Shown piece by piece: positions 32,286 to 50,001 of a DNA stretch of 64,000 bases. The stretch is taken from contig OZ244977.1 of NCBI GenBank assembly GCA_965222995.1, positions 582,095 through 646,094 of the forward strand. The letters are read 5' to 3'. The position numbers were made by a program, and so were the translations under genes. The notes under the pieces were generated by a model. That model worked only from the letters and a program-made list of their open reading frames with translations, did not search any database and was not told the DNA's origin. Source of the DNA: Bacteroidia bacterium (GTDB taxonomy: Bacteria > Bacteroidota > Bacteroidia > UBA8524). Position 1 is the stretch's first letter; every line of letters begins with the position of its first letter.

Positions 32286-32974
32286 CTATTTTCCTAAATC
32301 TTCTTCGGTTAATCCTCGAGCAAATAGTTTTGCTTTCAGTATTTCAAATTGTTCTTCCTCATGTATTCGGTTTTTATCTTCTACTAAGCCAATATTTAAA
32401 GAGTATCTACAGTTAAAGATTTCAATACCCACCAAAGAAATCTTTACTTTATTATTAATCCATTCGATAACCCCCAAATCAAAATTTCCGAATTTTTCTA
32501 AGTCTGTTTTAGTTGGTTCACCCAGTAAATCAGTGATATGATCTTTCAAGTAATGAAACCTTTTCATTCCATCATCATCATGCCCTATATTCTCTGTGAT
32601 TTCAGTTATAGGATAATGCCAAAGCCAAAAATGTATTTCATAGTCTCAAGGTGGCACTCTTCACCATCAAGAATATTATGCTTTCCTAAGTACCAATTAA
32701 CCCTATCTCCGCTATTTCTCCTTTGTTCTTTATACTTTCCAAGCTTGTTAAAGGGAGTATTCCAAGGAATAAATACACCTTTATCTTCAAGTAAAAGACC
32801 CTTTTGGAGGTTACTCCATACTTGTTGCCTCTTTATTTCTTTATTGCTAGAATAAGGATATGTATAAGTATAATTCAGCTTCTCTGTCTTTTTGAGAAGT
32901 GATAATAGCTCAGCGATTTTATCCTTAAATAGATGTAAAAGCATCATAATTTTGATGCAATTACTATAAAGCAA
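32286..32974 (-). pseudogene. Possible frameshifted hypothetical gene (two adjacent ORFs in different frames)
   Basis: ORFs 32606..32974 and 32286..32567 are collinear. The downstream ORF's frame stays open upstream of its Met to 32645 and so overlaps the upstream ORF's end. This is consistent with a single ~230-aa gene broken by a frameshift near 32610-32640. Confidence 0.3.
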
Positions 32975-34643
32975 CCGTTTCTTTTGAGGCTAAACGTTCT
33001 TTAATATCTAAGCGGTGTTTGCGTGCGGTATCTTGTGCAATATCATATCCTGCATCAGCATGGCGAATAACCCCCATAGCAGGGTCGTTATGTAACACAC
33101 GGTACAGTCTGCGCTCAGCATCTTCAGTACCGTCTGCCAATATCACCATACCTGCGTGTATAGAATAGCCCATACCTACACCGCCGCCATGGTGAATACT
33201 TACCCAACTGGCACCCCCGGCAGTGTTTATTAATGAGTTAAGTATAGGCCAATCGGCAACGGCATCACTACCGTCTTTCATAGCTTCTGTTTCACGATTT
33301 GGCGATGCTACCGAGCCTGTATCTAAATGGTCTCTGCCAATAACTATTGGGGCTTTTACTTTACCCTCTTTAACCAAATTGTTAAAAGCAATACCAGCCT
33401 TTTCACGTTCGCCTTGTCCTAACCAGCAAATGCGGGCGGGCAAACCTTGAAACTCAATTTTTTCTTGAGCCATTTTTATCCAACGGTGCAAGCTTTCATG
33501 TTCAGGAAACAGCTCTAATAAAACACGGTCGGTTTCATAAATATCTTGTGGGTCTCCTGATAAGGCTGCCCAGCGGAAAGGCCCACGCCCTTCACAAAAC
33601 TGCGGACGGATAAATGCCGGCACAAATCCGGGAAAATCAAAAGCGTTTTTCACTCCTTTTTCTAAGGCTCTTCCGCGAAGATTATTACCATAATCAAAAG
33701 TGATACTTCCTTTTTTCTGAAATTCAAGCATTAACTCTACATGGCGTGCCATACTCTCATAGCTTAGCTCTACATATTTATCAGGGTTTTCCTTTCTTAA
33801 ACGGTCTGCCGCTTCAACATCTAAAGTGTGAGGAAAATATCCCACTAAGGGGTCGTGTGCACTGGTTTGGTCGGTAAGGCTATCAGGAATAACACCTCTG
33901 TCCATCATGCGTTGCAATAAATTTACTGCATTGGCTACAACCGCTATAGATACAGCTTTACCTTCTTCTTTGGCTTTTAATGCCATATCTATACCTTCAT
34001 CAATATTGCGGGTCATTACATCGCAATAGCGGGTTTGCAAACGTTTGCGAACACGCCACTCTTCAACTTCAGCAGCTAGGCAAACTCCCTCATTCATAGT
34101 AATAGCAAGTGGCTGTGCACCTCCCATTCCGCCTAAGCCTGCGGTTACATTTAATGTGCCTTTAAGGGAACCGCCATAATGTTGGCGGGCTAGTTCTGCA
34201 AAAGTTTCATAAGTACCTTGTACAATACCTTGCGAGCCTATATATATCCAGCTACCGGCAGTCATTTGCCCGTACATCATCAATCCTTTTTTGTCTAACT
34301 CTCTAAAATGCTCCCAGTTTGCCCAGTTGGGTACCAACATACTGTTAGAGATAAGTACACGAGGGGCATCTTTATGGGTAGGTAAAATACCTACAGGCTT
34401 TCCGCTTTGTATAAGCAGGGTTTCATCTTCTTCTAAATCGCGTAGGGCTTTTACAATTAAGTCTAAGCTTTCCCAATTACGTGCAGCCTTACCTAAACCA
34501 CCATATACTATAAGGTCTTCGGGGCGTTCTGCTACTTCACTGTCTAAGTTATTCATTAGCATGCGTAGGGCAGCCTCCTGTACCCAACCTTTACAACTAA
34601 TTTCTGTTCCTCTCGGTATTTTTAAATCGTTTATACTTATCAT
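32964..34643 (-). CDS. hutU: Urocanate hydratase
   Basis: 559 aa. Length, Gly-rich NAD-binding segments ([10 protein letters not shown]) and overall conservation are typical of urocanase. Confidence 0.93.
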
Positions 34644-34736
34644 ATCCTAAATTCTTATTTCTTGTAACAGTATGGGGCAAAAATAGTTCAAATAATCAAA
34701 GGCTTTATAGTTAGGTATGGCATTTGTATATTTGCA

Positions 34737-35165
34737 ATGGTGTTGCAACAAGAACATACAAAAGCAGTAGATACACTTAAAAGCCATAAGCTGCGTATCA
34801 CAGAAACCCGAACTAAGGTTTTAGGCTTATTTATGAACGGACATTTAGCCCTGAAACAGTCTGATGTTGAAGATGCTTTGGGTACTAAGTACGACCGTGT
34901 TACTATTTATCGTACTTTAAATTCTTTTTTAGAAAGTGGCATTATCCATAAAATACCTGACGATAGCGGGGCTACTCAATATGCTTTGTGCGATAATTGT
35001 GATGCACACGAACACCATGATGAGCATATCCATTTTAAATGCACCAAGTGCAATAAGCTGGAGTGTTTAGACCACTATACCGTACCTAAATTTGAAGTTC
35101 CTTTAGGATATACTGTAGCCTCTGCCGATATGGTAGTAATAGGCATTTGTGCAGAGTGTACTTAG
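34737..35165 (+). CDS. Fur-family transcriptional regulator
   Basis: A winged-helix N-domain (LRITETRTKVLGLF, RVTIYRTLNSFLESGIIHKI) and a C-terminal metal site (HEHHDEH, CTKCNK...C...C). Confidence 0.85.
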   Translation: MVLQQEHTKAVDTLKSHKLRITETRTKVLGLFMNGHLALKQSDVEDALGTKYDRVTIYRTLNSFLESGIIHKIPDDSGATQYALCDNCDAHEHHDEHIHFKCTKCNKLECLDHYTVPKFEVPLGYTVASADMVVIGICAECT

Positions 35166-36091
35166 TCTTTTAGTTCTCTAGAAATTAAGTTCTCATATTG
35201 CTGAAACTTATAGTTTTCTGATGTTGCGTTTGAAGAACCAACAACATGCCGAATAATTTTTCCATTTTTATCTACAAGAAACTGTTGGGGAACTCCTTGA
35301 ATATTTAAATGTGATGTGAGTTTTCCATCAACATCATAAAGTATTTTAATACCTTTATTAGCAAAATATTTATTTGTAAAGGCTTGTTTGTAAGTATCTA
35401 TCCTGCCTGTATTTAGTAATATTACTTCAAAATTCTCTTTTTTAAATTTATCTTGTACTTTAGTAAGTAATGGTAATTGTTCGATACAAGGCAAGCAACT
35501 GTTTCTATAAAATTCAAATAGAATAATTTTGCCTTGTAAATTGCCAATATTAGTTTTAATTGAGTCTTTGTTTAAAAGTGCATGTGGCGGGGTGCCATTA
35601 TATATATTTGTATTCAGTTTTGGTGATGTTAAGTTATCGATTAACTCATCCCAACGCCCTATTGAGTTGGCATAAATTATATTACTAATGGATACAAAAA
35701 CAATAAAAACTATAACTATGTAAGTTTTTTTTAATGAATGGACTAAATAACCTAAGTAGAACGAAAGGGTTGCCCAAAAAGGTAGTAGAGGCAAATCATG
35801 CCAAAACATTATTTGATGAGAATTATATGTTGAAAGTATGATGTATAAAGAAGGCAAGAGTAATAAAATAACCTCTAGCAATTTTATTTTTTTTGATTTA
35901 ACTATAAGACCTATAATAAAAAACAGAGTTGAAATTACTGTTGGTCTAAAGTATATATTTTCAATATAGCCGCTTCTAGTAAAACTCCATACTGTAACAA
36001 CTCCAAATCCTAGAACTAATAAGATTATATATTTTAATATTTTTTTCATTTTAAATAGTTCCAGTTTAATTAAGTTTATTAACTGGAACAA
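35162..36091 (-). CDS. Polytopic membrane protein with C-terminal TlpA-like thioredoxin (thiol-disulfide oxidoreductase) domain
   Basis: Roughly five N-terminal TM segments are followed by a thioredoxin fold with the active site CLPC (LFEFYRNSCLPCIEQLPLL) and a cis-Pro region (IQGVPQQFLVDKNGKI). A possible alternative start lies at 36049 (MKKILKYIILL). Confidence 0.75.
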   Translation of the reverse strand: MFQLINLIKLELFKMKKILKYIILLVLGFGVVTVWSFTRSGYIENIYFRPTVISTLFFIIGLIVKSKKIKLLEVILLLLPSLYIILSTYNSHQIMFWHDLPLLPFWATLSFYLGYLVHSLKKTYIVIVFIVFVSISNIIYANSIGRWDELIDNLTSPKLNTNIYNGTPPHALLNKDSIKTNIGNLQGKIILFEFYRNSCLPCIEQLPLLTKVQDKFKKENFEVILLNTGRIDTYKQAFTNKYFANKGIKILYDVDGKLTSHLNIQGVPQQFLVDKNGKIIRHVVGSSNATSENYKFQQYENLISRELKD

Positions 36092-36109
36092 TTACGACAC
36101 TGTAATTTA

Positions 36110-36763
36110 CTATGGGATATTCAGTGCAATAGGGCATAAACCATCACAAGCCCACCTCCAAAAAGTGCCACAACCCGACTTTTTCTTTTTACATGAGTTT
36201 CTTTTTTCACAATCACCTAAAAAAGGGATGCACCAATCTGAACCAGAAGAACATTTACAATTATTATTATCATCCTCTTCAAATATATCATCATTTAAAT
36301 AGTTGGGGTCAATGTCATCTAATGTATTTACTATTCTTTTAATAGTATTTTCATTGAAGTTCGGAATAGCTGATGCCACCCATGTTGGTTCAAATGTATT
36401 TTTAAAACTGATGTCTTCAGCACTCCCATCGGTGAATAAATTAATACTCAACTGGTTAAAAATACTATTCAAATCACTTAACTGTGCAGAGTTCCATACT
36501 GTTAATCCTAACACCTGGTTTTTCTTATCCAACCAAATATTATATTTCTCTGTGGGCGTACAAGTATTGTAAGTAGCTTTCCTTACTGATGGAGAAAGAG
36601 TTAGGAGATATGCTCTTGTAATTGTTGTTTTACGTTGAAAGGCTACTTTTTCATCACTATTATTAATTTGAGGTTCTGTTTCAGACTGAGTGGTTTTAGT
36701 GCAAGAACTCATTATTAATAGCCCGGCTATTAATAATGCAAATTGACTTTTTAATTGTTTCAT
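36110..36763 (-). CDS. Lipoprotein with Cys-rich C-terminal module (9 Cys in last ~50 aa)
   Basis: Lipobox LLIMSSC. The C-terminus is NNNCKCSSGSDWCIPFLGDCEKRNSCKKKKSGCGTFWRWACDGLCPIALNIP. It lies 18 nt upstream of the TlpA-like gene on the same strand. Confidence 0.6.
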   Translation of the reverse strand: MKQLKSQFALLIAGLLIMSSCTKTTQSETEPQINNSDEKVAFQRKTTITRAYLLTLSPSVRKATYNTCTPTEKYNIWLDKKNQVLGLTVWNSAQLSDLNSIFNQLSINLFTDGSAEDISFKNTFEPTWVASAIPNFNENTIKRIVNTLDDIDPNYLNDDIFEEDDNNNCKCSSGSDWCIPFLGDCEKRNSCKKKKSGCGTFWRWACDGLCPIALNIP

Positions 36764-36980: not shown

Positions 36981-37745
36981 TTAATCCCAGTGTACATGAT
37001 ACTCAACATCAGCATCGTTGTTTTTCAGGTCAAAGGCTTCAATAATTAATTCGTATTCACCTTTTGGCCAAGATGGATCAAAAACAATTTTCTCAGTAAA
37101 ATTTTCTCCCGTCCCGCTTAAGTTTCCATCAATATCTACATAATTTTTTTCTGTTCCTTCATGTATAAGCTTAATTTCATAACTCTTCAAGCCTTTATCA
37201 TCTCCTACAGTACCCTCAATTGTAATTTCATTACTATTTTTTAATTCTATTTCATTATTTGCATCAGGTGCAGGAGTGGTATTTACATTAAGAGTTGGGG
37301 CTATTAAATCTTCGGCGTTTTTTATTACTATTTCAGAAACAATAAAGTCAGCCTCATTGCCGGCTTTGTCAATTACTCGCATCGTAAAATCATAATTTCC
37401 AGCAGCTATATCAATGGGTAAAGTAATTTTAAAATTCAAATTAGCCGTTTTACCACTCAAATTAATAATACTGTCCCACTCAAAAGCAGGTGAGCCATTT
37501 TTCATGTGGGCATGTCCATCAAAGTTTTCGTGTATTTCTATCTTAGCCTGGCTAAGCTCAGTATCATCGTTAATGGTAGCTGAAATTGTAATATCATTCC
37601 CAGATGTAAACTCATCATCTTTTGAAGGGCTATTTAGCTGTACTGATGGCTTAGTGGTATCTTTTGGGCTGTTGTCATCATCTTTTTTACATGATGAGAT
37701 ACCTATTAATAGTAAGGCTGCAAGTGCTAAACTTAGTTTTTTCAT
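36981..37745 (-). CDS. Lipoprotein with two tandem Ig-like repeat domains (DUF4625-like)
   Basis: The start at 37745 gives MKKLSLALAALLLIGISSC. There are two repeats of ~90 aa (ITISATINDDTELSQAKIEIHE / ITIEGTVGDDKGLKSYEIKLIHE). The family name is from memory. Confidence 0.6.
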   Translation of the reverse strand: MKKLSLALAALLLIGISSCKKDDDNSPKDTTKPSVQLNSPSKDDEFTSGNDITISATINDDTELSQAKIEIHENFDGHAHMKNGSPAFEWDSIINLSGKTANLNFKITLPIDIAAGNYDFTMRVIDKAGNEADFIVSEIVIKNAEDLIAPTLNVNTTPAPDANNEIELKNSNEITIEGTVGDDKGLKSYEIKLIHEGTEKNYVDIDGNLSGTGENFTEKIVFDPSWPKGEYELIIEAFDLKNNDADVEYHVHWD

Positions 37746-37783
37746 TTCTATAGTTATTATTTTATATGACTCTTGTTTTTGAA

Positions 37784-37821
37784 ACATTGTTGCAAATATA
37801 ATTAAATGCAACAATGTTGCA
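37784..37821. promoter_or_regulatory. Composite palindromic operator-like element (TGTTGCA half-sites x3)
   Basis: The sequence is ACATTGTTGCA-aatataattaaa-TGCAACAATGTTGCA. It lies in the divergent promoter region between the lipoprotein gene (minus) and the ECF sigma gene (plus). The core TGCAACA-A-TGTTGCA is a perfect palindrome also found at 43113..43127. Confidence 0.45.
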
Positions 37822-37957
37822 AGTAAAAATGCATTTATCAAAGATTGATTATATTGAGGCTATAGATATTTTACATTAAGAGAAATATTTTTAAGTGCGA
37901 TTACAACCCGCCAACCTTAAATACCGTTAATAACATAAACGACCTTCTCCACACGGG

Positions 37958-43097: not shown

Positions 43098-43142
43098 AAA
43101 ATACACTATAAATGCAACATTGTTGCATTTATAGTGTATTTT
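43098..43142. promoter_or_regulatory. 45-bp near-perfect palindrome (operator-like) overlapping the promoter of oxidoreductase gene 43162
   Basis: AAAATACACTATAAATGCAACA-T-TGTTGCATTTATAGTGTATTTT has 22-nt arms around the core TGCAACA-T-TGTTGCA. The -7-like TATTTTTG at 43137..43144 lies inside the right arm. The ATG is at 43162. Confidence 0.5.
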
Positions 43143-43161: not shown

Positions 43162-44067
43162 ATGAGTAAACTATACGATACAATTATTATTGGTGGGAGC
43201 TATTCTGGTTTATCAGCAGCAATGTCATTAGGGCGGGCATTAAGAAACGTACTAATTATAGATGAGGGAAAACCCTGTAATATCCAAACACCTTATTCAC
43301 ACAATTTTATTACTCAAGATGGCAAAGCACCATTAGTTATAAAAGAAGAAGCTTTAGCACAAGTTTTAAAGTATAATACAGTTGAACTTAAAAAGGGTAA
43401 AGCTGTTTCAGTAGAAAAATTGGCTGAAGGAACCTTTAATATTATGAGCAGTGATGGGAAAGAATGGCAAACTGGGAAACTATTATTTGCTTCGGGAATT
43501 AAGGATATAATGCCAAATATTAAGGGATTTAAAGAGTGTTGGGGTATATCTATACTACATTGCCCTTATTGCCATGGTTATGAAGTAAAGGCCCTTGAGA
43601 CAGGAGTTTTGGCTAAAGGAGATATAGGATTTGAATTTACTAAAATGATAAGTAACTGGACGAATAAATTAACACTATACACTAACGGTGAAGATGATTT
43701 AAGTAAAGAGCAGAGAGAAAAATTAGAAACCAATGATATAATGTTAGACAAAAGAAAAATACAAGAATTTGTGCATGATAGAGGTAACCTGAAAAGGGTT
43801 GTATTTAAGGATGGAAACCATGTGGATTTAACAGTAATGTATGCCAATGTTGAGACAAAACAACATTGTGATTTTCCTGAGCTTTTAGGTTGCGAGTTTA
43901 CTGAATCTGGTCTTATAGAAGTTAACGGGTTTCAACAAACAAGTATTGCAGGGGTTTATGCCGCAGGCGATTGCGCTTCAATGTTTAGGTCAGTAGCTCT
44001 CTCTGTTTCATCGGGTTCGGTTGCCGGAGCAGCCATTAACCATGAATTAATTAACGAAAGTTTTTAG
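43162..44067 (+). CDS. Thioredoxin-reductase-like NAD(P)/FAD-dependent oxidoreductase with CPYC redox motif
   Basis: FAD motif IIIGGSYSGLSAA, a CxxC at ILHCPYCHGYE and a second nucleotide-binding motif GVYAAGDCAS. Confidence 0.8.
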   Translation: MSKLYDTIIIGGSYSGLSAAMSLGRALRNVLIIDEGKPCNIQTPYSHNFITQDGKAPLVIKEEALAQVLKYNTVELKKGKAVSVEKLAEGTFNIMSSDGKEWQTGKLLFASGIKDIMPNIKGFKECWGISILHCPYCHGYEVKALETGVLAKGDIGFEFTKMISNWTNKLTLYTNGEDDLSKEQREKLETNDIMLDKRKIQEFVHDRGNLKRVVFKDGNHVDLTVMYANVETKQHCDFPELLGCEFTESGLIEVNGFQQTSIAGVYAAGDCASMFRSVALSVSSGSVAGAAINHELINESF

Positions 44068-44069
44068 CC

Positions 44070-46454
44070 TTATTTTTTTTCCAAAACAGGAATAATAACC
44101 GTAACTACTACGTTTCTGCCCGGTTCTGGCAAGTTAAGAAAACGCCAACGGCTAAGGTGGTTTAAATAGCGTACATCCGTTAAGTTTTGTACTTGTAAAT
44201 AAACGGTAGCTCGTTTTTTTCCTTTAGTTTCAATTTCAAAACCAGCACCTGCATTCCATAATTGATAGGCAGGTGTGGTTAGCTCATTTCTATCGGTACG
44301 GTTTTGAGCTGTAATATAATTGTGGCTAAGCTGTATAAATAGACCCTTAATATTTCTCCCCACCTTCGGTAATTCCCACTCAACTTCGCTTTTTAGCGAG
44401 GGTGGGGGGGTAAATGGCAATGGTAAATCTTCACTAACATTATAAGTTCTTACCAAGTCTCCCGTAAGAGATAAGTGTAAATGCTTAGTTGGGTGGTACT
44501 CTGCAGTGAATTCACCACCGCTATAAATTGCCTCGGCTTGGGTAAACTGGTATATCTGCCCACCCTCGGGCAAGAAAGAAAAACGGGCTGTTGGGCGTAA
44601 ATAAATATAATTGGTAAAGTAGTTAAAGAAGGGGCTAAAACTAAATAAGAACTTTTCTTTTTCTACGGAGATAACTACATCGGTTTGGTAGCCGTTTTCA
44701 GGTAATAAACTGCTATCACCTACCTCGTGCCGAAAACTGCCATGGTGCAGTCCGTTTACACTTAATTCTTGCGGTGTAGGCATACGGAAAGACTTACCAA
44801 AGTTTAGTTTAAAACTCCAATAATTATTAGGGTTGTATGCAGCACCAATGCTACCGCTCCAGCTATAAAAATCTCTATTAATATCAGGATTACGTTGAGT
44901 ATAGCCTTTAATTGTGGTGGCGTTTTGCCAAACAGGTTGCAGGTGGCGTTCTATAGCTACATTACCATAATCGAAACGAAGACCTGCATTGGCTATAAAT
45001 TTACGGCTTATATGCCATTTTTCTACTGCAAAGGCACCTATGTTAAAGGCATCAAAATTAGGGAGCAGAAACTCAAACCCACCAAAACGGTTTTGCTGGT
45101 AGCTGCTACTAATGCCATATACACCATCCAGTACTTTTAAGGTTTTAGCATGGTAGCGAATATTGGTACTAAAAGTTTGTAGTCTTAGACTATGAGCGGT
45201 AGTGCTATTTATTTGCGGCCCCACACCATGCGCATGCGGACTAGAGTTTTCATTGCGTAAGTTGTTTTGGTAGCCTGCATCAATCTCCATCCAGTTTTTA
45301 CCAATTTGTATATTGGTGTTAGAGATAATTTTAAAGTGGTTTATATCTTGGTTAGGTAAAGCAATATTGCGTTCATCACCATCAGGAGTTAGTTGGTAAG
45401 CTCTTGGAATACCTAAAGCACCGCTAAAAATACCTATTTGTTGGTTGTAGTTACTTATAGTTATATGGCTGTAGCCCCAGTTTTTATTTACCCCCAACAT
45501 TAGCGAGGCATGGCGTTCTCTACCCGCTGTATTTTTCAGTTTTTGGTTATAGATGGGCAATACAAAACGGTTGTATACAAAACTATCGGCTGGTACATTA
45601 TAATCACCATAATCTAGGGCTGTAAGTCTTGCTCTATATACAAACCCCTTGTGGTTTCCCTTTGCTTGTGCAGAAACACCGTATGTATTATTTACACTTT
45701 TGTAGTTGGTAAGAAAAGCCGCGCTGTGGCTACCCTCCATAGGGCTAACAGGATGTTTAAGGTTTACCACACCGCCAATAGCATCAGACCCGTAAACTAA
45801 TGAAGCAGGACCTTTTAATATTTCTATTTGTTCAACGGCAAACTGGTCTATCTCTAAACCGTGGTCGCCGCCCCATTGTTGCCCTTGTTGTTTTATGCCA
45901 TTATCTGCCACTGCAACACGGTTAAAACTCATTCCCCGAATAACAGGTTTAGAAACACCTGTACCCATATTAATGCTATTAATACCAGGCAGCTTATCTA
46001 ATGAGTTCATTAGCGTGGTACCCATATTTTTTTGTAGGTAACCTTCATCAACAGCAATTAACTCTACAGAGCTTTCTTGTTGTGATAGTTTTAGAACGTT
46101 ACTCTCTATTACTACCTCATTTACTTCTAAACTAGTGGGTACAAGTGTTACAGTTAGCTGTACATCTTCATCGGCTATTATAACGTCTCGGGCAGCAGGC
46201 TTATAACCAATCATACGGATATGTATGTGATACCGCCCGTTTTTTACATTTTTTATGGTGAAGTTGCCTAAAGAATCTACACCCACGCCTTGCTGTGTTT
46301 CGTGCAGATATACTGAAGCCGCAAAAGCAGGTTCCTTATTCTCTATTAATACCTTACCACTAATTTTGTATTGGGCAGACAGTAAGGTAGTTATGAGAAT
46401 AAAAAAGAGTAGTAGTATATATTTGCTCTTTGCCAACTTTATAAAAGACGACAA
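44070..46454 (-). CDS. TonB-dependent outer membrane receptor
   Basis: Signal peptide, CarboxypepD_reg-like N-domain (YKISGKVLIENKEPAFAASVYL) and plug segments. The C-terminal barrel is 794 aa. It lies 31 nt downstream of the MarR-like gene on the same strand. Confidence 0.9.
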   Translation of the reverse strand: MSSFIKLAKSKYILLLFFILITTLLSAQYKISGKVLIENKEPAFAASVYLHETQQGVGVDSLGNFTIKNVKNGRYHIHIRMIGYKPAARDVIIADEDVQLTVTLVPTSLEVNEVVIESNVLKLSQQESSVELIAVDEGYLQKNMGTTLMNSLDKLPGINSINMGTGVSKPVIRGMSFNRVAVADNGIKQQGQQWGGDHGLEIDQFAVEQIEILKGPASLVYGSDAIGGVVNLKHPVSPMEGSHSAAFLTNYKSVNNTYGVSAQAKGNHKGFVYRARLTALDYGDYNVPADSFVYNRFVLPIYNQKLKNTAGRERHASLMLGVNKNWGYSHITISNYNQQIGIFSGALGIPRAYQLTPDGDERNIALPNQDINHFKIISNTNIQIGKNWMEIDAGYQNNLRNENSSPHAHGVGPQINSTTAHSLRLQTFSTNIRYHAKTLKVLDGVYGISSSYQQNRFGGFEFLLPNFDAFNIGAFAVEKWHISRKFIANAGLRFDYGNVAIERHLQPVWQNATTIKGYTQRNPDINRDFYSWSGSIGAAYNPNNYWSFKLNFGKSFRMPTPQELSVNGLHHGSFRHEVGDSSLLPENGYQTDVVISVEKEKFLFSFSPFFNYFTNYIYLRPTARFSFLPEGGQIYQFTQAEAIYSGGEFTAEYHPTKHLHLSLTGDLVRTYNVSEDLPLPFTPPPSLKSEVEWELPKVGRNIKGLFIQLSHNYITAQNRTDRNELTTPAYQLWNAGAGFEIETKGKKRATVYLQVQNLTDVRYLNHLSRWRFLNLPEPGRNVVVTVIIPVLEKK

Positions 46455-46485
46455 AAATACCCTAAATGCAAGTATGTTGCAAAAA

Positions 46486-47154
46486 TTAATCTGTGTACGA
46501 GTGCTCAGGACAATCTATTCGCAATTTATCCTTTGGCAATTTTTGCTTAAGAAGATTACAATAACCGCCACCTGTATTTTGGTAGTACTCGCAGGTTAAG
46601 CACATTCTTTGTAGGGTGATTATGCTACTTTTGGTTAATTTATAAATTAGCTCTACCAATGCATTAAATAAATCTTCCTTTTGGGTTTGTGATAGTTGAC
46701 TAATAGGCTTTTGTAAAGGGAGAATAAAGTTTGATGTTTTGTAAGCCAGCTTCTTACCTTTTGGAGTTAGTGTAAGTGAATAGCTTCTAGTATCTAAAGG
46801 GTCTGCATTTTTTTCTATTAGTTTTTTTTGTGAAAGAGCCTTTACTGCATCACTTATAGTCGCTTTAGTTAAGTTAAACTCTTTGGCCAGGTATCCCACC
46901 TTGCAGTATTGATTTTGTGTATGGAAGGCTAAGAAGATTAGTATTTGCATTTGTATAGGGCTTAAAGTATGCTCCTTTGCTTCATCCCAAAGAGCTACTC
47001 TAAATGCTTCTGAAACTCTTTCTAAAGCCACCACAATTTTGCTGTCTAAACTAGAGTTTTGTACATTTAAGTTAAAAGCTGTTTCATCCATAAAAGTAAT
47101 GCAGAGTATAATACCCTGCATTACAAAGTTAGTAGTCCTAACTATTAAAATCAA
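46486..47154 (-). CDS. MarR-family winged-helix regulator with C-terminal Cys4 (CxxC...C...C) extension
   Basis: The MarR-like core is LSPIQMQILIFLAFHTQNQYCKVGYLAKEFNLTKATISDAVKALSQKKLIEK. The C-terminus is RMCLTCEYYQNTGGGYCNLLKQKLPKDKLRIDCPEH. The alternative start MDETAFN lies at 47091. Confidence 0.7.
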   Translation of the reverse strand: MILIVRTTNFVMQGIILCITFMDETAFNLNVQNSSLDSKIVVALERVSEAFRVALWDEAKEHTLSPIQMQILIFLAFHTQNQYCKVGYLAKEFNLTKATISDAVKALSQKKLIEKNADPLDTRSYSLTLTPKGKKLAYKTSNFILPLQKPISQLSQTQKEDLFNALVELIYKLTKSSIITLQRMCLTCEYYQNTGGGYCNLLKQKLPKDKLRIDCPEHSYTD

Positions 47155-47158
47155 AATT

Positions 47159-47743
47159 TTAGAATTCTCCCTCGTTAATGTACGGATGGCACCATAACAG
47201 CGTAGTTAATGTTATGGCTTTAAACCATGCAGTATGCATAGCTTCAACCTCATCTTGGGTATGGCCTTTTTTGGCAAGAAACGGCTTTATGGTTGCTGTT
47301 ATTGGGAAGATAAATGCTACCATATATCTGAAATGGACTATAGGAGTAGCATCTACAGTGTCTGTTTTATTTTTCTTTATAGAGTGGTGGCGAAGAGCAA
47401 TTTCATGCTGGTAATTAAGCCAATCTTGATTATAGGTACGATTACATAGGTCTAGAATCCATTGTTTAAATCTTTCGCGTACTTTATTTAAGTAATCTTC
47501 ATCAGGTGAACTATTTTTACCAAAATAGCTTATCAAATGTTTATGGCTATCTACAAAACCATACCATACATCTAATACATCATCAGTTTGGTCTGCTAAA
47601 ACCACCCCTGCCTTTTTAAGTTGCAACTCGTCTTCTTCTGTAAATAAAACTGTTTGTTTAAGAAGGTCTAAATCTTCAAGTGTAATGGGTGAAGTAGCTA
47701 CTTGCCCATAAGTGTAGCCATGAATGTTTTTTTGTGTTGTCAT
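47159..47743 (-). CDS. Protoglobin-like stand-alone sensor globin
   Basis: 194 aa. Segments GYTYGQV, DVLDVWYGFV, IALRHH and FRYMVAFIFPITATIKPFLAKKGH closely recall archaeal protoglobin (~195 aa), which I am recalling from memory. It lies 4 nt upstream of the MarR-like gene. Confidence 0.7.
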   Translation of the reverse strand: MTTQKNIHGYTYGQVATSPITLEDLDLLKQTVLFTEEDELQLKKAGVVLADQTDDVLDVWYGFVDSHKHLISYFGKNSSPDEDYLNKVRERFKQWILDLCNRTYNQDWLNYQHEIALRHHSIKKNKTDTVDATPIVHFRYMVAFIFPITATIKPFLAKKGHTQDEVEAMHTAWFKAITLTTLLWCHPYINEGEF

Positions 47744-47757
47744 AGTGTTATAAGATT

Positions 47758-47810
47758 AATTTCGTTTTCAAATATAGTTAGGATTCCTAACTATATTTGA
47801 AAACGAAATT
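47758..47810. promoter_or_regulatory. 53-nt perfect palindrome (26-nt arms, 1-nt centre) 15 nt upstream of protoglobin start codon
   Basis: AATTTCGTTTTCAAATATAGTTAGGA-T-TCCTAACTATATTTGAAAACGAAATT, verified base by base. It is AT-rich and followed by TTTTTC on the plus strand. Confidence 0.55.
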
Positions 47811-47902: not shown

Positions 47903-48529
47903 CTACCGCTCTATCTTAAACTTAACTGTTAAAGAAAACAAATTGTTATATAAGCCAACCACTCTTTGCGATAGTGAATTATCTACAAAAACAGTACGCC
48001 AATCATCTCTGGCTTGTGAACGAATAGAGTATTGGTAGCGAAGCTGTACAGCCGTTTTTTCATTAATTTCATAAACTGCTCCCAATAAAAACTGGTTGTC
48101 GAATTTTTTAAACTGGTCTGTAAAATCTTGGTTACCCGTAAAGTCTTGTACTTCTGCTTTTAACAATACCCCACCCGCAAAACCAAACTGGAAACTAAAC
48201 TTTTTATATGTATATGCTGCAAATAAAGGAACCTCAATATAGTTTATTCTATACCTGTCAAAAGTTGATGAAGAATTGATAGTATCTTGGCTAGTAGTGC
48301 GCACTGCTCCCTTTTGTGAATATAAAAACTCTAACCCCCCACTCCATTTTTCATTAAAGGAGTAGCTAATCCAAAAACCACCGTTTAGCCCTACTTTGTT
48401 ATAACCCGATAGTCTATCACCATCTAGTTGAGAGAAATTTAAACCGCCTACGACTCCTCCATCAAACTTTTGGGCATTAACACCTAAAAAGCAAACAAGT
48501 GCAAAAAGTAACAGGCTTAGTTTTCTCAT
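47903..48529 (-). CDS. Small outer-membrane beta-barrel protein (OMP_b-brl/PorT-like)
   Basis: 208 aa with a signal peptide and alternating beta-strand pattern. It ends in an aromatic residue (F-x-I-E-R region). Its start overlaps the hutH stop (ATGA on the minus strand). Confidence 0.7.
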   Translation of the reverse strand: MRKLSLLLFALVCFLGVNAQKFDGGVVGGLNFSQLDGDRLSGYNKVGLNGGFWISYSFNEKWSGGLEFLYSQKGAVRTTSQDTINSSSTFDRYRINYIEVPLFAAYTYKKFSFQFGFAGGVLLKAEVQDFTGNQDFTDQFKKFDNQFLLGAVYEINEKTAVQLRYQYSIRSQARDDWRTVFVDNSLSQRVVGLYNNLFSLTVKFKIER

Positions 48530-50001
48530 TTCTGCATAAATTTAATACTAGCTTCTATATGTGAGTGCATGTAGGTATCATTAGTAATAAAAGGAACTAC
48601 CTGGCGGTAGTGCTCTCTTAGTTTTTCTATTTGGGTTGATGATTTTATGTCTTTTCTAAAATCTAAAGCTTGCATAGCAGTAAATAACTCAATAGCTAAA
48701 ATACGCTCTACATTTTGCACCACTTTAAATGCCTTGGTAGCAGCATTTGCCCCCATACTTACATGGTCTTCTTGCCCGTTTGATGAGGTAATACTATCTA
48801 TAGATGCTGGGGTACAATATTGTTTGTTTTGGCTCACCATACTGGCGGCAGTGTATTGCGGTATCATAAAACCCGAATTAACCCCGGGATTAGCTACTAA
48901 AAATTCAGGCAAACCCCGCTGACCGCTTACTAACAGATAAGTTCTTCGTTCTGATATATTACCTAACTCTGCCGTTGCTATTGCTAAATAATCTAATGGT
49001 AATGCAATGGGTTGCCCGTGGAAGTTACCCCCCGAAAGTGTGTCGCCCTCATCAGGGAAAATCAGGGGGTTATCTGTTACACTATTAATTTCTGTATGAA
49101 TGGCTTGTTTTATATAGGCTAAGGCATCTTTACTAGCACCATGTACTTGTGGCATGCAACGGAAAGAGTAGGGGTCTTGCACTGCTTTACCTTCTTGTTT
49201 TACAATTTCACTGTCTATTAATAACTCACCAAAATAGGTAGCAGTATGCATATGCCCCTCATGTGGGCGAATACGGGCTATGCGCTTATCAAATGCCTTT
49301 AAGTTACCGTTAAAGGCTTCAAAACTAACAGCGCCAATAGTATCTGCCCAAAGGGTAAGCTGCTGAGCTTTTAAAACAGTGTAGCAACCGTAGGCACTCA
49401 TAAATTGTGTACCGTTTATTAGCCCTATACCTTCTTTTGCCTGTAGCACTATATTGGGTTTACCTACTATTTTATTAGCCTCGCTACCGTGTAGTTTTTT
49501 CCCTTTATGATAGATTTCACCTTCACCTAAAAGGGGTAAACTTAGGTGGGCCAGAGGTGCTAAATCTCCCGATGCACCTAAACTACCTTGCTGGTACACC
49601 ACGGGAGTAATATCGTGATTGAAATAATCTATAAGCCGTTGTACTGTTTCCAATTGCACGCCCGAATACCCGTAACTAAGCGACTGTGCTTTTAGCACCA
49701 ACATTAGTTTTACAATTTCTTGAGGAACTTCATCCCCTGTTCCACAAGCATGAGATACAAGCAGGTTGTATTGCAGTTGATTTAGCTCATCATTACTAAT
49801 TTGGTTTTTATACAGCGAGCCAAAACCTGTATTGATACCGTAGATAGGCTTATCGTTATTTTTAAGTTTGTTTTCTAAAAACTCACGGCTTTTGGTTATA
49901 CGTGCTGTTGCCGCTTTTGATAACTCTACTTGTGCCCCCTCTTGTTGCAGGGTGTATATATTTTCTAAGGTTAAAAATTTATCTATTTGGTGTTTGCTCA
50001 C
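48526..50001 (-). CDS. hutH: Histidine ammonia-lyase
   Basis: 491 aa with the MIO-forming motif GSLGASGDLAPLAHL and the overall HAL/PAL signature. Confidence 0.93.
   Translation of the reverse strand: MSKHQIDKFLTLENIYTLQQEGAQVELSKAATARITKSREFLENKLKNNDKPIYGINTGFGSLYKNQISNDELNQLQYNLLVSHACGTGDEVPQEIVKLMLVLKAQSLSYGYSGVQLETVQRLIDYFNHDITPVVYQQGSLGASGDLAPLAHLSLPLLGEGEIYHKGKKLHGSEANKIVGKPNIVLQAKEGIGLINGTQFMSAYGCYTVLKAQQLTLWADTIGAVSFEAFNGNLKAFDKRIARIRPHEGHMHTATYFGELLIDSEIVKQEGKAVQDPYSFRCMPQVHGASKDALAYIKQAIHTEINSVTDNPLIFPDEGDTLSGGNFHGQPIALPLDYLAIATAELGNISERRTYLLVSGQRGLPEFLVANPGVNSGFMIPQYTAASMVSQNKQYCTPASIDSITSSNGQEDHVSMGANAATKAFKVVQNVERILAIELFTAMQALDFRKDIKSSTQIEKLREHYRQVVPFITNDTYMHSHIEASIKFMQK

What the first reader, a model, noticed from the sequence alone, without database searches (positions are those of the whole stretch)
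44070..47743. Stand-alone protoglobin upstream of a Cys4-tailed MarR regulator and a TonB-dependent receptor
ORF 47159..47743 is 194 aa and reads like an archaeal-type protoglobin (GYTYGQ..., WYGFV, IALRHH, FRYMVAFIFPITATIKPFLAKKGH). Protoglobins are rare, single-domain haem sensors. It lies 4 nt upstream of a MarR-type regulator whose C-terminus carries CxxC...C...C (46486..47154), a plausible redox or metal switch. That regulator is followed after 31 nt by a TonB-dependent receptor (44070..46454). A gas/redox-sensing globin, a thiol-based regulator and an outer-membrane importer in one co-directional block suggests haem or redox sensing coupled to uptake. On the opposite strand just beyond the receptor sits an oxidoreductase gene (43162) under its own large palindromic operator.
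Basis: partly seen in the sequence, partly recalled or inferred. Interest (0 to 1): 0.72.

Follow-up and report, generated by a model that had tools for sequence, protein, structure and literature searches.

The report
Protoglobin with dedicated Cys4-MarR repressor
A genuine stand-alone protoglobin is paired with a MarR-type regulator that has a four-cysteine tail and its own conserved DNA operator, a pairing found across several bacterial phyla that gives a testable handle on what protoglobins do; the neighbouring TonB receptor and oxidoreductase belong to a separate Fur-type metal regulon.

Summary
ORF 47159..47743(-) is a full-length single-domain protoglobin: Pfam PF11563 E=1.3e-32, and 58% identical to Methanosarcina MaPgb with every haem-pocket residue kept. 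The next gene is a MarR with an invariant C-terminal C-x2-C...C...C-P-E-H tail.

The block is not one three-gene unit.
- The MarR starts at ATG 47091 (201 aa), 67 nt after the globin stop, not 4 nt.
- A 15-bp palindrome, GTTAGGAnTCCTAAC, lies upstream of the globin and again upstream of the MarR, each time abutting or overlapping a Bacteroidetes -7 promoter box.
- In 160 related loci this motif occurs 204 times; 202 sites lie just upstream of MarR-operon genes or globins (2-9 expected by chance).
- About 84% of informative protoglobin loci carry an adjacent same-strand Cys4-MarR, in Bacteroidota and a Kryptoniota MAG, with a divergent arrangement in an Acidobacteriota MAG; the regulator family itself also includes Bipolaricaulota and Actinomycetota members. 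Only 3 of 80 of the closest MarR loci carry a globin.

So the globin is a target of a self-contained Cys4 sensor-repressor.

The TonB receptor and oxidoreductase are syntenic only in one close relative. They carry a different operator, shared with a Fur-family gene 12 kb away.

Protoglobins are not rare (>2000 homologues). The regulator class and its regulon appear undescribed.

The parts
47159..47743 (-). pgb: single-domain protoglobin, 194 aa. Haem-pocket residues W60 (B9), Y61 (B10), V88 (E7), R91, F92 (E11), R118, H119 (F8 proximal His), F144 (G8), I148, W184; also C100, the equivalent of native MaPgb Cys101.
   Evidence: Pfam PF11563 E=1.3e-32. MaPgb 2VEB E=4.6e-75, 110/190 identical. Invariant columns in alignment A1.
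47775..47793 (.). Operator A1: TAGTTAGGAaTCCTAACTA, with the 15-bp core GTTAGGAnTCCTAAC at 47777-47791. It is centred about 41 nt upstream of the pgb ATG and directly abuts the -7 box.
   Evidence: 0 mismatches; chance expectation 0.05 per window. The same motif lies a median 46 bp upstream of the globin in 41 other loci. The core is conserved in L001 while the flanks diverge.
47758..47810 (.). Perfect 53-bp palindrome (26-nt arms) that embeds operator A1. The extension beyond the ~19-bp core is specific to this genome.
   Evidence: RNA fold -32 kcal/mol, z=-11. L001 keeps only the core.
47769..47776 (-). Bacteroidetes-type -7 promoter box TATATTTG (consensus TAnnTTTG) for pgb. It starts exactly where the operator core ends.
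   Evidence: Read directly from the sequence. The same register occurs in 74 of 179 low-GC operator sites. The TAnnTTTG consensus is from my own knowledge of Bacteroidetes promoters.
47126..47144 (.). Operator A2: TAGTTAGGAcTaCTAACTt, in the 67-nt pgb-marR spacer.
   Evidence: 2 mismatches to the 19-mer. Conserved in L001 as TAGTTAGGACTGCTAACT. 22 sites directly precede MarR genes in other loci.
47124..47131 (-). -7 box TAACTTTG for marR, overlapping the last 4 nt of operator A2.
   Evidence: Read directly from the sequence. The same -4 register occurs in 36 of 179 low-GC sites.
47096..47124 (-). Hairpin GUAAUGCAGGGUAU-U-AUACUCUGCAUUAC followed by UUUU-AUG(marR). Candidate attenuator of pgb read-through or marR 5'-UTR element.
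   Evidence: dG -18 kcal/mol, z=-6.4. The L001 counterpart gives -15 kcal/mol, z=-3.95, with a different loop and one compensatory A-U to G-C change.
46486..47091 (-). marR: 201-aa MarR-family repressor (wHTH at about residues 45-108) with a C-terminal Cys4 module. C164, C167, C178, C194 and H197 are invariant; R162 and D193 are also invariant.
   Evidence: Pfam MarR_2. Family length and start. Invariant columns over 58 sequences at 35-72% identity. AF2 and Foldseek give a MarR core only.
46489..46650 (-). Region coding for the Cys4 tail module (residues 148-201). No Pfam, PDB-sequence or PDB-fold counterpart.
   Evidence: An exhaustive HMMER search finds it essentially only at the C-terminus of ~190-215-aa proteins.
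46464..46482 (.). Operator B (Fur-family-type box) TTGCAACATACTTGCATTT upstream of the TonB receptor, followed by the -7 box TATTTTTG (46452-46459). NOT part of the pgb-marR unit.
   Evidence: 0 mismatches. Conserved in L001.
44070..46436 (-). TonB-dependent receptor (CarboxypepD_reg + Plug + barrel), probable start TTG 46436. An adjacent gene belonging to a separate regulon.
   Evidence: Nearest NCBIfam models are ZnuD and haem receptors, all far below their cut-offs. Start taken from the L001 gene call. No synteny in 160 loci.
43098..43142 (.). Perfect 45-bp palindrome with operator B core AAATGCAACATTGTTGCATTT (43110-43130), overlapping the -7 box TATTTTTG of the oxidoreductase gene.
   Evidence: Conserved in L001 with symmetric changes in both arms.
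43162..44067 (+). Thioredoxin-reductase-like FAD/NAD(P) oxidoreductase (CPYC motif). Separate regulon.
   Evidence: Pfam Pyr_redox_2 E=2e-25. TIGR01292 79 bits against a cut-off of 343.
34737..35165 (+). Fur-family regulator gene with operator B on its own start (34730-34748). Candidate regulator of the TonB receptor, the oxidoreductase and the DUF4625 lipoprotein (36981..37748, with tandem boxes at 37779-37824).
   Evidence: Pfam FUR E=3.4e-11 and DUF4625 E=2e-31. Motif B occurs 9 times against 2.2 expected. Sequences read.

Best explanation
The core of the finding is a two-gene, self-regulated unit, pgb-marR.

The MarR is a 201-aa dimeric winged-helix repressor with a small C-terminal module built on four invariant cysteines (plus His197 in most members).

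It binds the palindrome GTTAGGAnTCCTAAC. In this window one copy abuts the -7 promoter box of the protoglobin gene and a second copy overlaps the -7 box of marR itself. The bound regulator therefore blocks RNA polymerase at both promoters.

The signal is perceived by the regulator's own Cys4 module. Most likely this is a metal centre, either an Fe-S cluster or a Zn-thiolate site, that is modified by NO, O2/ROS or thiol-oxidising stress. Its loss or oxidation releases the DNA.

The protoglobin is then made as an effector: a haem protein that binds or converts the offending small ligand. It is not the upstream sensor.

In other bacteria the same regulator and operator also control a 77-aa thioredoxin-fold CPVC protein, a DUF2024 metal-binding protein, a 245-aa secreted protein and sometimes a truncated haemoglobin. 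The protoglobin is one interchangeable member of this regulon.

The TonB-dependent receptor and the divergent oxidoreductase are neighbours only in this lineage. They are controlled through a different operator (TTGCAACAnnnTTGCA), probably by the Fur-family regulator encoded at 34737.

Status of each step:
- Shown: gene identities, operator conservation and position, pairing statistics, and the separateness of the two motifs.
- Inferred: that this MarR is the protein binding motif A, that it represses, the nature of the metal centre and the signal, and the globin's chemistry.
For: - Globin identity.
- MarR start and invariant Cys4.
- Motif A in the window: 2 sites, both in this unit, with 0.05 expected by chance.
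- Motif A across 160 loci: 204 sites, 202 of them within 3 kb upstream of the MarR start or within 150 bp upstream of a globin. Shuffles give 2-9. 74 of 80 MarR loci have at least one site.
- Fixed register with the -7 box in 110 of 179 low-GC sites.
- In high-GC marR-first loci the motif sits directly after a TTGACA...TATAAT promoter.
- Pairing: 52 complete same-strand Cys4-MarRs, plus 6 cut by contig ends, among 80 globin loci. That is about 84% of informative loci.
- Named or annotated genome contexts: Terrimonas, a Pyrinomonadaceae MAG and an ENA contig; Chitinophagaceae, Pseudochryseolinea and a Kryptoniota MAG.
- Regulator independent of the globin: 77 of 80 of the closest MarR loci have no globin within the fetched flanks, yet keep the tail and the operator.
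- TonB receptor and oxidoreductase not syntenic. Distinct motif B shared with the Fur-family gene and the DUF4625 gene and conserved in L001.
- Precedent for the logic: ArnR and NsrR are Fe-S repressors of the globin gene hmp that are released by NO (PMC12343034).
Against: - No experiment shows that this MarR binds motif A. The assignment rests on co-occurrence.
- The cofactor of the tail is unknown. The AF2 tail confidence is only 52-72, and there is no Pfam, PDB-sequence or fold match.
- Cys4 could be a purely structural Zn site, with the real effector binding in the MarR cleft.
- Repression rather than activation is inferred from geometry only.
- 11 of about 70 informative globin loci lack an adjacent MarR.
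- The 80 globin loci are the closest relatives of this globin (56-70% identity), so archaeal protoglobins were not sampled.
- The 53-bp perfect palindrome is much longer than the conserved operator and is unexplained.
- The assignment of motif B to the Fur-family protein rests on one window plus one relative.
Confidence: 0.68

Rival explanations
1. Split globin-coupled sensor. The protoglobin is the gas or redox sensor, and it passes the signal to the MarR by protein-protein contact. The MarR is the output domain of a two-protein sensor.
For: - Globin and MarR are adjacent and co-directional in about 84% of informative globin loci, often 6-35 nt apart.
- Protoglobin-type domains do act as sensors when fused to kinases (AfGcHK/NmpU, PMC11841059).
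Against: - The same MarR family, with the same invariant tail and operator, occurs without any globin in 77 of 80 of the closest loci.
- No globin-MarR fusion protein was found in the exhaustive tail search. The 459-aa and 240-aa exceptions are TPR or RsmG chimeras.
- The operator sits in front of the globin gene itself, which marks the globin as a target.
- The window MarR is as similar to unlinked family members (53-61%) as to globin-linked ones (44-57%).
Confidence: 0.13
2. Globin, MarR and TonB-dependent receptor form one co-transcribed block that couples haem or redox sensing to outer-membrane uptake.
For: - The three genes are co-directional and close together.
- The order globin-MarR-receptor-oxidoreductase is kept in one related contig, L001.
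- The receptor's nearest NCBIfam models include haem receptors.
Against: - An orthologous receptor or oxidoreductase is absent from all 160 other globin or MarR loci.
- The receptor promoter region carries motif B and its own -7 box, not motif A.
- Motif B recurs at a Fur-family gene and a DUF4625 gene 9-12 kb away.
- All NCBIfam receptor hits are far below their cut-offs: 136 bits against 950 for ZnuD, and 121 against 317 for the haem receptor model.
Confidence: 0.05
3. The Cys4 tail is only a structural Zn knuckle. The regulator senses a small molecule, for example haem or a porphyrin as in the MarR haem sensor PefR, or an aromatic or thiol-reactive compound, in the canonical MarR ligand cleft. 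The operator-target relation stays the same.
For: - Haem-sensing MarRs exist, and PefR (7DVT) appears among the fold matches.
- The targets are haem proteins (protoglobin, truncated haemoglobin).
- A CxxC...C...C pattern is compatible with Zn.
Against: - Four Cys, R162 and D193 are invariant over 35-72% identity, and the Cys persist at 24-30% identity. That is more constraint than a spacer needs, though it also fits a structural Zn site.
- The last Cys is usually followed by Pro, as in ferredoxin-type cluster motifs (my own knowledge).
- The regulon is rich in thiol-redox proteins.
- The 2024 review lists only AdcR/ZitR as MarR metalloregulators, so there is no precedent either way (PMC11672702).
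Confidence: 0.14

Closest known systems
Methanosarcina acetivorans protoglobin MaPgb (PDB 2VEB) and Aeropyrum pernix ApPgb (7UTE)
   Same: - Single-domain ~195-aa globin with the N-terminal extension.
- 58% identity to MaPgb over 190 residues.
- W60/Y61 (B9/B10), V88 (E7), F92 (E11), H119 (F8), F144 (G8) and the native Cys (C100) are all conserved.
   Different: - Bacterial, from a low-GC Bacteroidota-like genome, rather than archaeal.
- Embedded in a regulator-operator unit that has not been described for the archaeal proteins.
- Physiological function is unknown in both cases.
ArnR (Corynebacterium glutamicum) and SufR, COG2345 [4Fe-4S] wHTH repressors; also NsrR-hmp
   Same: - Same architecture and logic: a winged-helix DNA-binding domain, a dimerisation helix and a C-terminal Cys-rich sensory module.
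- ArnR and NsrR repress a globin gene (hmp) and are released by NO (PMC12343034; bioRxiv 10.64898/2025.12.26.696629).
   Different: - No sequence similarity was detected.
- Ligand pattern differs: C-x2-C-x10-13-C-x15-C(P) here, against C-x13-C-x29-C plus His/Glu there.
- The tail is about 45 residues rather than a ~100-residue domain.
- The core is a canonical MarR fold.
- No GRP AT-hook was looked for or seen.
- The cofactor here is unproven.
Thiol- or metal-sensing MarRs (OhrR, MgrA, AdcR/ZitR) and the haem-sensing MarR PefR
   Same: - MarR fold and a palindromic operator overlapping the promoter.
- Autoregulation.
- Derepression by a chemical signal.
   Different: - In those proteins the sensor residues lie inside the MarR core.
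- Here an appended ~45-residue Cys4 module has no counterpart in any solved MarR.
- A 2024 review names AdcR/ZitR as the only characterised MarR metalloregulators (PMC11672702).
Globin-coupled sensors (HemAT, AfGcHK/NmpU)
   Same: The globin belongs to the same Pfam family (PF11563) as the sensor domains of these proteins.
   Different: - There is no fused output domain.
- The regulator works without the globin in most genomes.
- No fusion was found.
Fur/Zur-regulated TonB-dependent uptake loci of Bacteroidota (receptor plus DUF4625 lipoprotein)
   Same: The receptor, the DUF4625 lipoprotein, the oxidoreductase and the Fur-family gene all carry the same palindromic box at their promoters.
   Different: - Metal specificity is unknown.
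- The receptor fails every NCBIfam equivalog cut-off.
- The link between this box and this Fur-family protein is an inference.

Membership tests
Protoglobin (Pfam PF11563; MaPgb/ApPgb-type single-domain globin) | Significant match to the family model above the curated cut-off | tested here: met
   113.4 bits against a cut-off of 25, E=1.3e-32.
Protoglobin (Pfam PF11563; MaPgb/ApPgb-type single-domain globin) | Stand-alone ~195-aa protein, including the N-terminal extension, with no output domain | tested here: met
   194 aa. Aligns at residues 5-194 with MaPgb residues 4-195.
Protoglobin (Pfam PF11563; MaPgb/ApPgb-type single-domain globin) | Proximal His F8 and distal Trp B9/Tyr B10, Phe E11, Phe G8 | tested here: met
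   H119, W60, Y61, F92 and F144 align with MaPgb H120, W60, Y61, F93 and F145. They are invariant in 15 homologues. The residue roles come from my own knowledge of the MaPgb structures.
Protoglobin (Pfam PF11563; MaPgb/ApPgb-type single-domain globin) | Binds haem b and diatomic ligands | not testable with these tools
   Needs purified protein and spectroscopy.
MarR family transcriptional regulator | Winged helix-turn-helix of MarR type, above the Pfam cut-off | tested here: met
   MarR_2 39.7 bits (cut-off 27) and MarR 26.6 bits (cut-off 24.6).
MarR family transcriptional regulator | MarR fold with N- and C-terminal dimerisation helices | tested here: met
   AF2 model pLDDT 80.8 overall and 81-97 over residues 11-150. 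Foldseek top 50 are all MarR proteins, with TM to target 0.55-0.82.
MarR family transcriptional regulator | Palindromic operator at its own and target promoters | tested here: met
   GTTAGGAnTCCTAAC at the pgb and marR promoters and at 202 of 204 family-associated positions. Binding itself was not tested.
ArnR/SufR (COG2345) Fe-S regulators | Sequence or profile similarity to the family and its C-x12-13-C-x27-29-C plus Glu/His ligand set | tested here: not met
   The spacing here is C-x2-C-x10-C-x15-C. No Pfam hit for the tail even at E<=10. The profile search against the PDB returns only canonical MarRs. It is a functional analogue only.
ArnR/SufR (COG2345) Fe-S regulators | Binds a [4Fe-4S] cluster required for DNA binding | not testable with these tools
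   Needs anaerobic purification and spectroscopy.
Globin-coupled sensor | Globin domain fused to a transmitter domain | tested here: not met
   The protein is a single domain of 194 aa. No fusions with the MarR tail were found.
TonB-dependent receptor; ZnuD or haem-receptor subfamilies | Plug plus 22-strand barrel domains (family level) | tested here: met
   Plug 66.8 bits, barrel 99.5 bits and CarbopepD_reg_2 59 bits.
TonB-dependent receptor; ZnuD or haem-receptor subfamilies | Score above the curated NCBIfam cut-off for ZnuD (950) or TonB-hemin (317) | tested here: not met
   135.9 and 121.3 bits. The substrate cannot be assigned.
Fur-family regulon (for the receptor and the oxidoreductase) | A Fur-family regulator gene, and a shared palindromic box at its own and the target promoters | tested here: met
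   FUR domain E=3.4e-11. Motif B at 34730, 37779/37804, 43110 and 46464: 9 matches against 2.2 expected, with none of 100 shuffles reaching 9. Conserved in L001.
Fur-family regulon (for the receptor and the oxidoreductase) | Metal-dependent binding of that protein to that box | not testable with these tools
   Needs EMSA with and without metal, or expression data.

The most novel reading that the evidence does not exclude
The Cys4-tailed MarRs are a new, phylum-spanning class of metal-centre (Fe-S or redox-active Zn-thiolate) sensor-repressors with a fixed operator, GTTAGGAnTCCTAAC. Their conserved regulon (protoglobin, truncated haemoglobin, a small thioredoxin-fold protein, DUF2024) is a so-far unrecognised small-ligand or redox stress response. 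It would give the first physiological context for bacterial protoglobins.
Probability: 0.45. Interest if true: 0.78.

Novelty: new variant of a known kind. Interest (0 to 1): 0.6.

Why it matters
Protoglobins have been studied structurally since 2004 and are now workhorses of enzyme engineering. In the papers I could search, no established physiological role emerged: a 2012 review reports only a proposed role in anaerobic CO metabolism for MaPgb (PMC3820574), and most recent hits are biocatalysis papers.

A dedicated, conserved regulator with a recognisable sensor module and a sharply defined operator makes that question experimentally approachable. One can ask which signal derepresses the promoter, and which partner genes are co-induced (the thioredoxin-fold protein and DUF2024).

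It would also add an appended Cys4 sensory module to the MarR family, whose only characterised metalloregulators so far are the Zn sensors AdcR and ZitR (PMC11672702).

Two unrelated regulons abut here.

Tried and rejected
- The genome scan with the single MarR sequence found nothing. The scan with alignment A2 worked.
- The window's own globin is not on record in the contig index, and its cluster carries no name or accession. The source organism stays unidentified.
- The AF2 model from 16 sequences gave a tail pLDDT below 58. With 58 sequences it rose only to 52-72, so I drew no conclusion from the Cys geometry.
- Foldseek against the PDB, the profile search against PDB sequences and Pfam at E<=10 gave nothing for the tail.
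- Rosetta-stone search: the tail-only HMMER search over 1.84 billion representatives found 178 hits at E<=0.001. Of the 150 listed, nearly all have the same ~200-aa architecture or are fragments. The 459-aa and 240-aa exceptions are TPR or RsmG chimeras, not globin fusions.
- ArnR/SufR homology, a lead from memory, was rejected as membership and kept as an analogy.
- Rfam found no family in the window, so the palindromes are not known RNA elements.
- The sigma-70 promoter scan is uninformative here: 15 found against 18 expected. Bacteroidetes -7 boxes were read by eye and then quantified.
- Literature: no paper in the library links protoglobin with a MarR (the hits were 'marrow' and similar). 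DUF2024 appears only as 'metal-binding protein'. There is no functional study of bacterial single-domain protoglobins.
- The other usual regulon genes (DUF2024, the Trx-like protein, the C4 secreted protein, the truncated haemoglobin) are not in this 64-kb window.

Full report

The four ORFs are present as listed.

The 194-aa product of 47159..47743(-) matches Pfam Protoglobin at 113 bits against a cut-off of 25 (E=1.3e-32). It aligns end to end with the crystallised Methanosarcina acetivorans protoglobin (2VEB, E=4.6e-75) and with Aeropyrum ApPgb (E=2.7e-62).

Counting the printed alignment gives 110/190 identical residues (58%). Every residue I know to line the MaPgb haem pocket is conserved: W60, Y61, V88, R91, F92, R118, H119 (the proximal His), F144, I148 and W184. 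The native Cys, replaced by Ser in the crystallised protein, is also kept. These positions are invariant in 15 bacterial homologues.

The next ORF is a MarR (MarR_2 E=5e-10) and the third is a TonB-dependent receptor with CarboxypepD_reg, Plug and barrel domains. The divergent gene at 43162 is a thioredoxin-reductase-like flavoprotein behind a perfect 45-bp palindrome.

Two details of the observation do not hold.

First, start sites:
- The MarR family has hundreds of members of about 201 aa that begin at the equivalent of 'MDETAF'. The gene therefore starts at ATG 47091, and the spacer after the globin stop is 67 nt, not 4.
- The receptor most likely starts at TTG 46436, as called in the related contig L001. 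That leaves 49 nt after the MarR stop.

Second, protoglobins are not rare. The word-indexed search returned more than 2000 homologues at E<=0.001. The best 120 are 64-75% identical, many come from Bacteroidota, and several are already named 'protogloblin ApPgb'.

**2. What is conserved around it?**

A close relative (Logan contig L001, globin 75% identical) keeps the whole order: globin, MarR, receptor, then the oxidoreductase, a C1 peptidase and an S8 peptidase on the opposite strand. That is ordinary short-range synteny.

To look further I fetched two sets of loci:
- 80 loci from named genomes, anchored on the MarR.
- 80 metagenome loci, anchored on the globin.

I then searched all of them with the window's proteins. 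The result is asymmetric.

From the globin side:

| Class of globin-anchored locus | Number |
|---|---|
| Complete MarR homologue on the same strand with the four-Cys tail | 52 |
| MarR homologue cut by the contig end | 6 |
| Unclear | 1 |
| No MarR, flanks too short to judge | 10 |
| No MarR despite long flanks | 11 |

That is about 84% of informative loci. The MarR homologues range from 24 to 60% identity to the window protein, in loci of 33-73% GC.

From the MarR side, only 3 of the 80 closest family loci have a globin within the fetched flanks (up to 10 kb each side): a Chitinophagaceae MAG, Pseudochryseolinea flava and a Candidatus Kryptoniota MAG.

No locus in either set has an orthologue of the receptor or the oxidoreductase. 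Only weak generic TonB-receptor hits at 24-26% identity appear.

Annotated contexts agree. Terrimonas pollutisoli, a Pyrinomonadaceae (Acidobacteriota) MAG and an ENA contig each show the globin with a ~202-204-aa Cys4-MarR and otherwise unrelated neighbours. The third homologue search shows that the regulator family also includes Candidatus Bipolaricaulota, Actinomycetota and Rubrobacter members.

**3. The operator**

Comparing the window with L001 shows that only a core of the 53-bp palindrome upstream of the globin is conserved: TAGTTAGGA-N-TCCTAACTA. The same sequence recurs in the globin-MarR spacer of both genomes.

In the window the 19-mer occurs exactly twice, at 47775-47793 and 47126-47144, against 0.05 expected.

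In the 160 fetched loci the 15-mer GTTAGGAnTCCTAAC (up to 2 mismatches) occurs 204 times:
- 202 of these lie within 3 kb upstream of the MarR start or within 150 bp upstream of a globin.
- Shuffled sequences give 2-9 sites.
- 74 of 80 MarR loci have at least one site.
- The median distance from a site to the next gene start is 55 nt.

The genes that follow the sites are:

| Gene following the site | Sites |
|---|---|
| 77-aa thioredoxin-fold CPVC protein | 59 |
| DUF2024 | 41 |
| Protoglobin | 35 |
| 245-aa secreted protein without Pfam | 30 |
| The MarR itself | 22 |
| GGACT protein | 3 |
| Truncated haemoglobin | 3 |

In low-GC loci the Bacteroidetes -7 box TAnnTTTG starts exactly at the end of the 15-mer in 74 of 179 sites. 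It overlaps the last four bases of the 15-mer in a further 36. The window shows one site of each kind.

In distant, high-GC, marR-first loci a variant (TTTAGGAgTACTAAA) follows directly on a TTGACA-N17-TATAAT promoter. A glutaredoxin-like ORF lies between marR and the globin.

An operator in a fixed register on the promoter's -7/-10 element is the classical arrangement of a repressor. That this MarR is the protein binding it is an inference from strict co-occurrence.

**4. The regulator**

Across 58 sequences at 35-72% identity the following are invariant: C164, C167, C178, C194, H197, R162 and D193. The four Cys persist at 24-30% identity, where His197 is replaced by Phe or Tyr.

The AF2 model is a confident MarR core (pLDDT 81-97 over residues 11-150) with a lower-confidence tail (52-72). 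Foldseek returns only canonical MarRs covering about 135-150 columns. The PDB profile search stops at about residue 154. Pfam has nothing for the tail even at E<=10.

An exhaustive HMMER search with the 54-residue tail found 178 representatives. Essentially all have the tail at the C-terminus of ~190-215-aa proteins or are fragments. There are no globin fusions.

The closest functional precedents are ArnR and SufR. These are wHTH repressors with a C-terminal Cys3+His/Glu [4Fe-4S] domain, and ArnR represses the flavohaemoglobin gene hmp until NO attacks the cluster (PMC12343034; bioRxiv 10.64898/2025.12.26.696629). Their ligand spacing and domain size differ, and no sequence similarity was detected, so this is analogy and not membership.

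A 2024 review states that the Zn sensors AdcR and ZitR are the only characterised MarR metalloregulators (PMC11672702). I found no paper linking a protoglobin to a MarR.

**5. Mechanism proposed**

Apo- or holo-MarR, most likely in its metal-loaded form, binds the two operators and blocks the pgb and marR promoters. A chemical insult to the Cys4 centre releases it, and the protoglobin is then produced as an effector. Candidate insults are NO, O2/ROS and thiol oxidants. The regulon's globins and thioredoxin-fold proteins point this way, but do not prove it.

The sensor is in the regulator and not in the globin, because the regulator, its tail and its operator function without a globin in most genomes.

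The hairpin at 47096-47124 has dG -18 kcal/mol and z=-6.4. It is conserved in L001 with one compensatory change. It lies between the marR -7 box and the marR ATG. It may limit read-through from pgb or structure the marR leader. This point is open.

**6. The receptor and the oxidoreductase**

Their promoters carry a different palindrome, TTGCAACAnnnTTGCATTT, conserved in L001. In the window it occurs 9 times against 2.2 expected. The sites include:
- One directly on the start of a Fur-family gene (34737..35165; FUR E=3.4e-11).
- A tandem pair in front of a DUF4625 lipoprotein gene (36981..37748).

Both the receptor and the oxidoreductase have their own TAnnTTTG boxes. I therefore assign them to a Fur-family metal regulon that merely abuts the pgb-marR unit in this lineage. 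The receptor's substrate cannot be named, since all NCBIfam subfamily scores are far below their cut-offs.

**7. Verdict**

The globin is a new member of a known family.

The three-gene 'sensing coupled to uptake' idea is not supported.

What is worth carrying forward is the conserved protoglobin-Cys4-MarR-operator module and its wider regulon. It appears undescribed in the literature I could search, which is open-access only, so a description elsewhere cannot be excluded. It would make the physiological role of protoglobins directly testable.

Limits:
- No binding or expression data.
- The cofactor of the tail is unknown.
- The globin loci sampled are the nearest relatives only.
- The source organism is unidentified.

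Noticed in passing
window 34730-34748, 37779-37824, 43110-43130, 46464-46482: A second operator motif (TTGCAACAnnnTTGCATTT) marks a Fur-family regulon. It sits on the Fur-family gene's own start, in tandem before a DUF4625 lipoprotein gene, before the TrxR-like oxidoreductase and before the TonB receptor. Metal specificity is unknown.
   Followed up: partly
window 47758-47810: The globin's operator is embedded in a perfect 53-bp palindrome, although only the ~19-bp core is conserved in the nearest relative. The extension mirrors the -7 box. It could also act as the terminator of the upstream beta-barrel OMP gene (47903..48529).
   Followed up: partly
window 47096-47124; L001 808-837: A stable hairpin followed by UUUU-AUG lies between the marR -7 box and the marR start. 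It is conserved in L001 with a different loop and one compensatory A-U to G-C change.
   Followed up: partly
L087, L088, L090, L097, L105 (globin-anchored metagenome loci): These loci carry two tandem protoglobin paralogues, followed in varying combinations by DUF2024, a 207-aa CPGC protein or an 82-aa protein (neither with a Pfam match), the Cys4-MarR, and in some a 101-aa Cys-rich protein. This is a larger version of the same operon.
   Followed up: no
MarR-anchored loci L004-L083 (e.g. L042 5996-6391): A truncated haemoglobin (Bac_globin) lies within 16 of 80 Cys4-MarR loci, three times directly behind the operator. The regulator is therefore linked to two unrelated globin types.
   Followed up: partly
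e.g. L008 8580-9317; 28 of the MarR-anchored loci: A 245-aa secreted protein family with no Pfam match is a frequent operator-preceded member of the regulon (30 sites).
   Followed up: no
L123, L125, L127, L137, L156, L158, L163: In high-GC genomes the order is marR, then a glutaredoxin/NrdH-like ORF of roughly 85-95 aa, then the globin. An operator variant, TTTAGGAgTACTAAA, follows directly on a sigma-70 TTGACA-N17-TATAAT promoter.
   Followed up: partly
window 9829..14085 (-): The GC-rich stretch (0.43-0.47 against about 0.35) is a single 1418-aa ORF with PKD domains and a CHU_C type IX secretion signal.
   Followed up: partly
window 35162..36763 (-): A TlpA-like membrane redoxin (309 aa) and a Cys-rich 217-aa lipoprotein with no Pfam match sit immediately downstream of the Fur-family gene, on the opposite strand (convergent with it).
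   Followed up: no
window 32964..34643 (-) and 48526..50001 (-): On sequence grounds these look like the histidine-utilisation genes hutU (urocanate hydratase) and hutH (histidine ammonia-lyase). They lie about 14 kb apart, on either side of the region studied.
   Followed up: no
whole window: No Rfam family reaches its gathering score anywhere in the 64 kb.
   Followed up: yes
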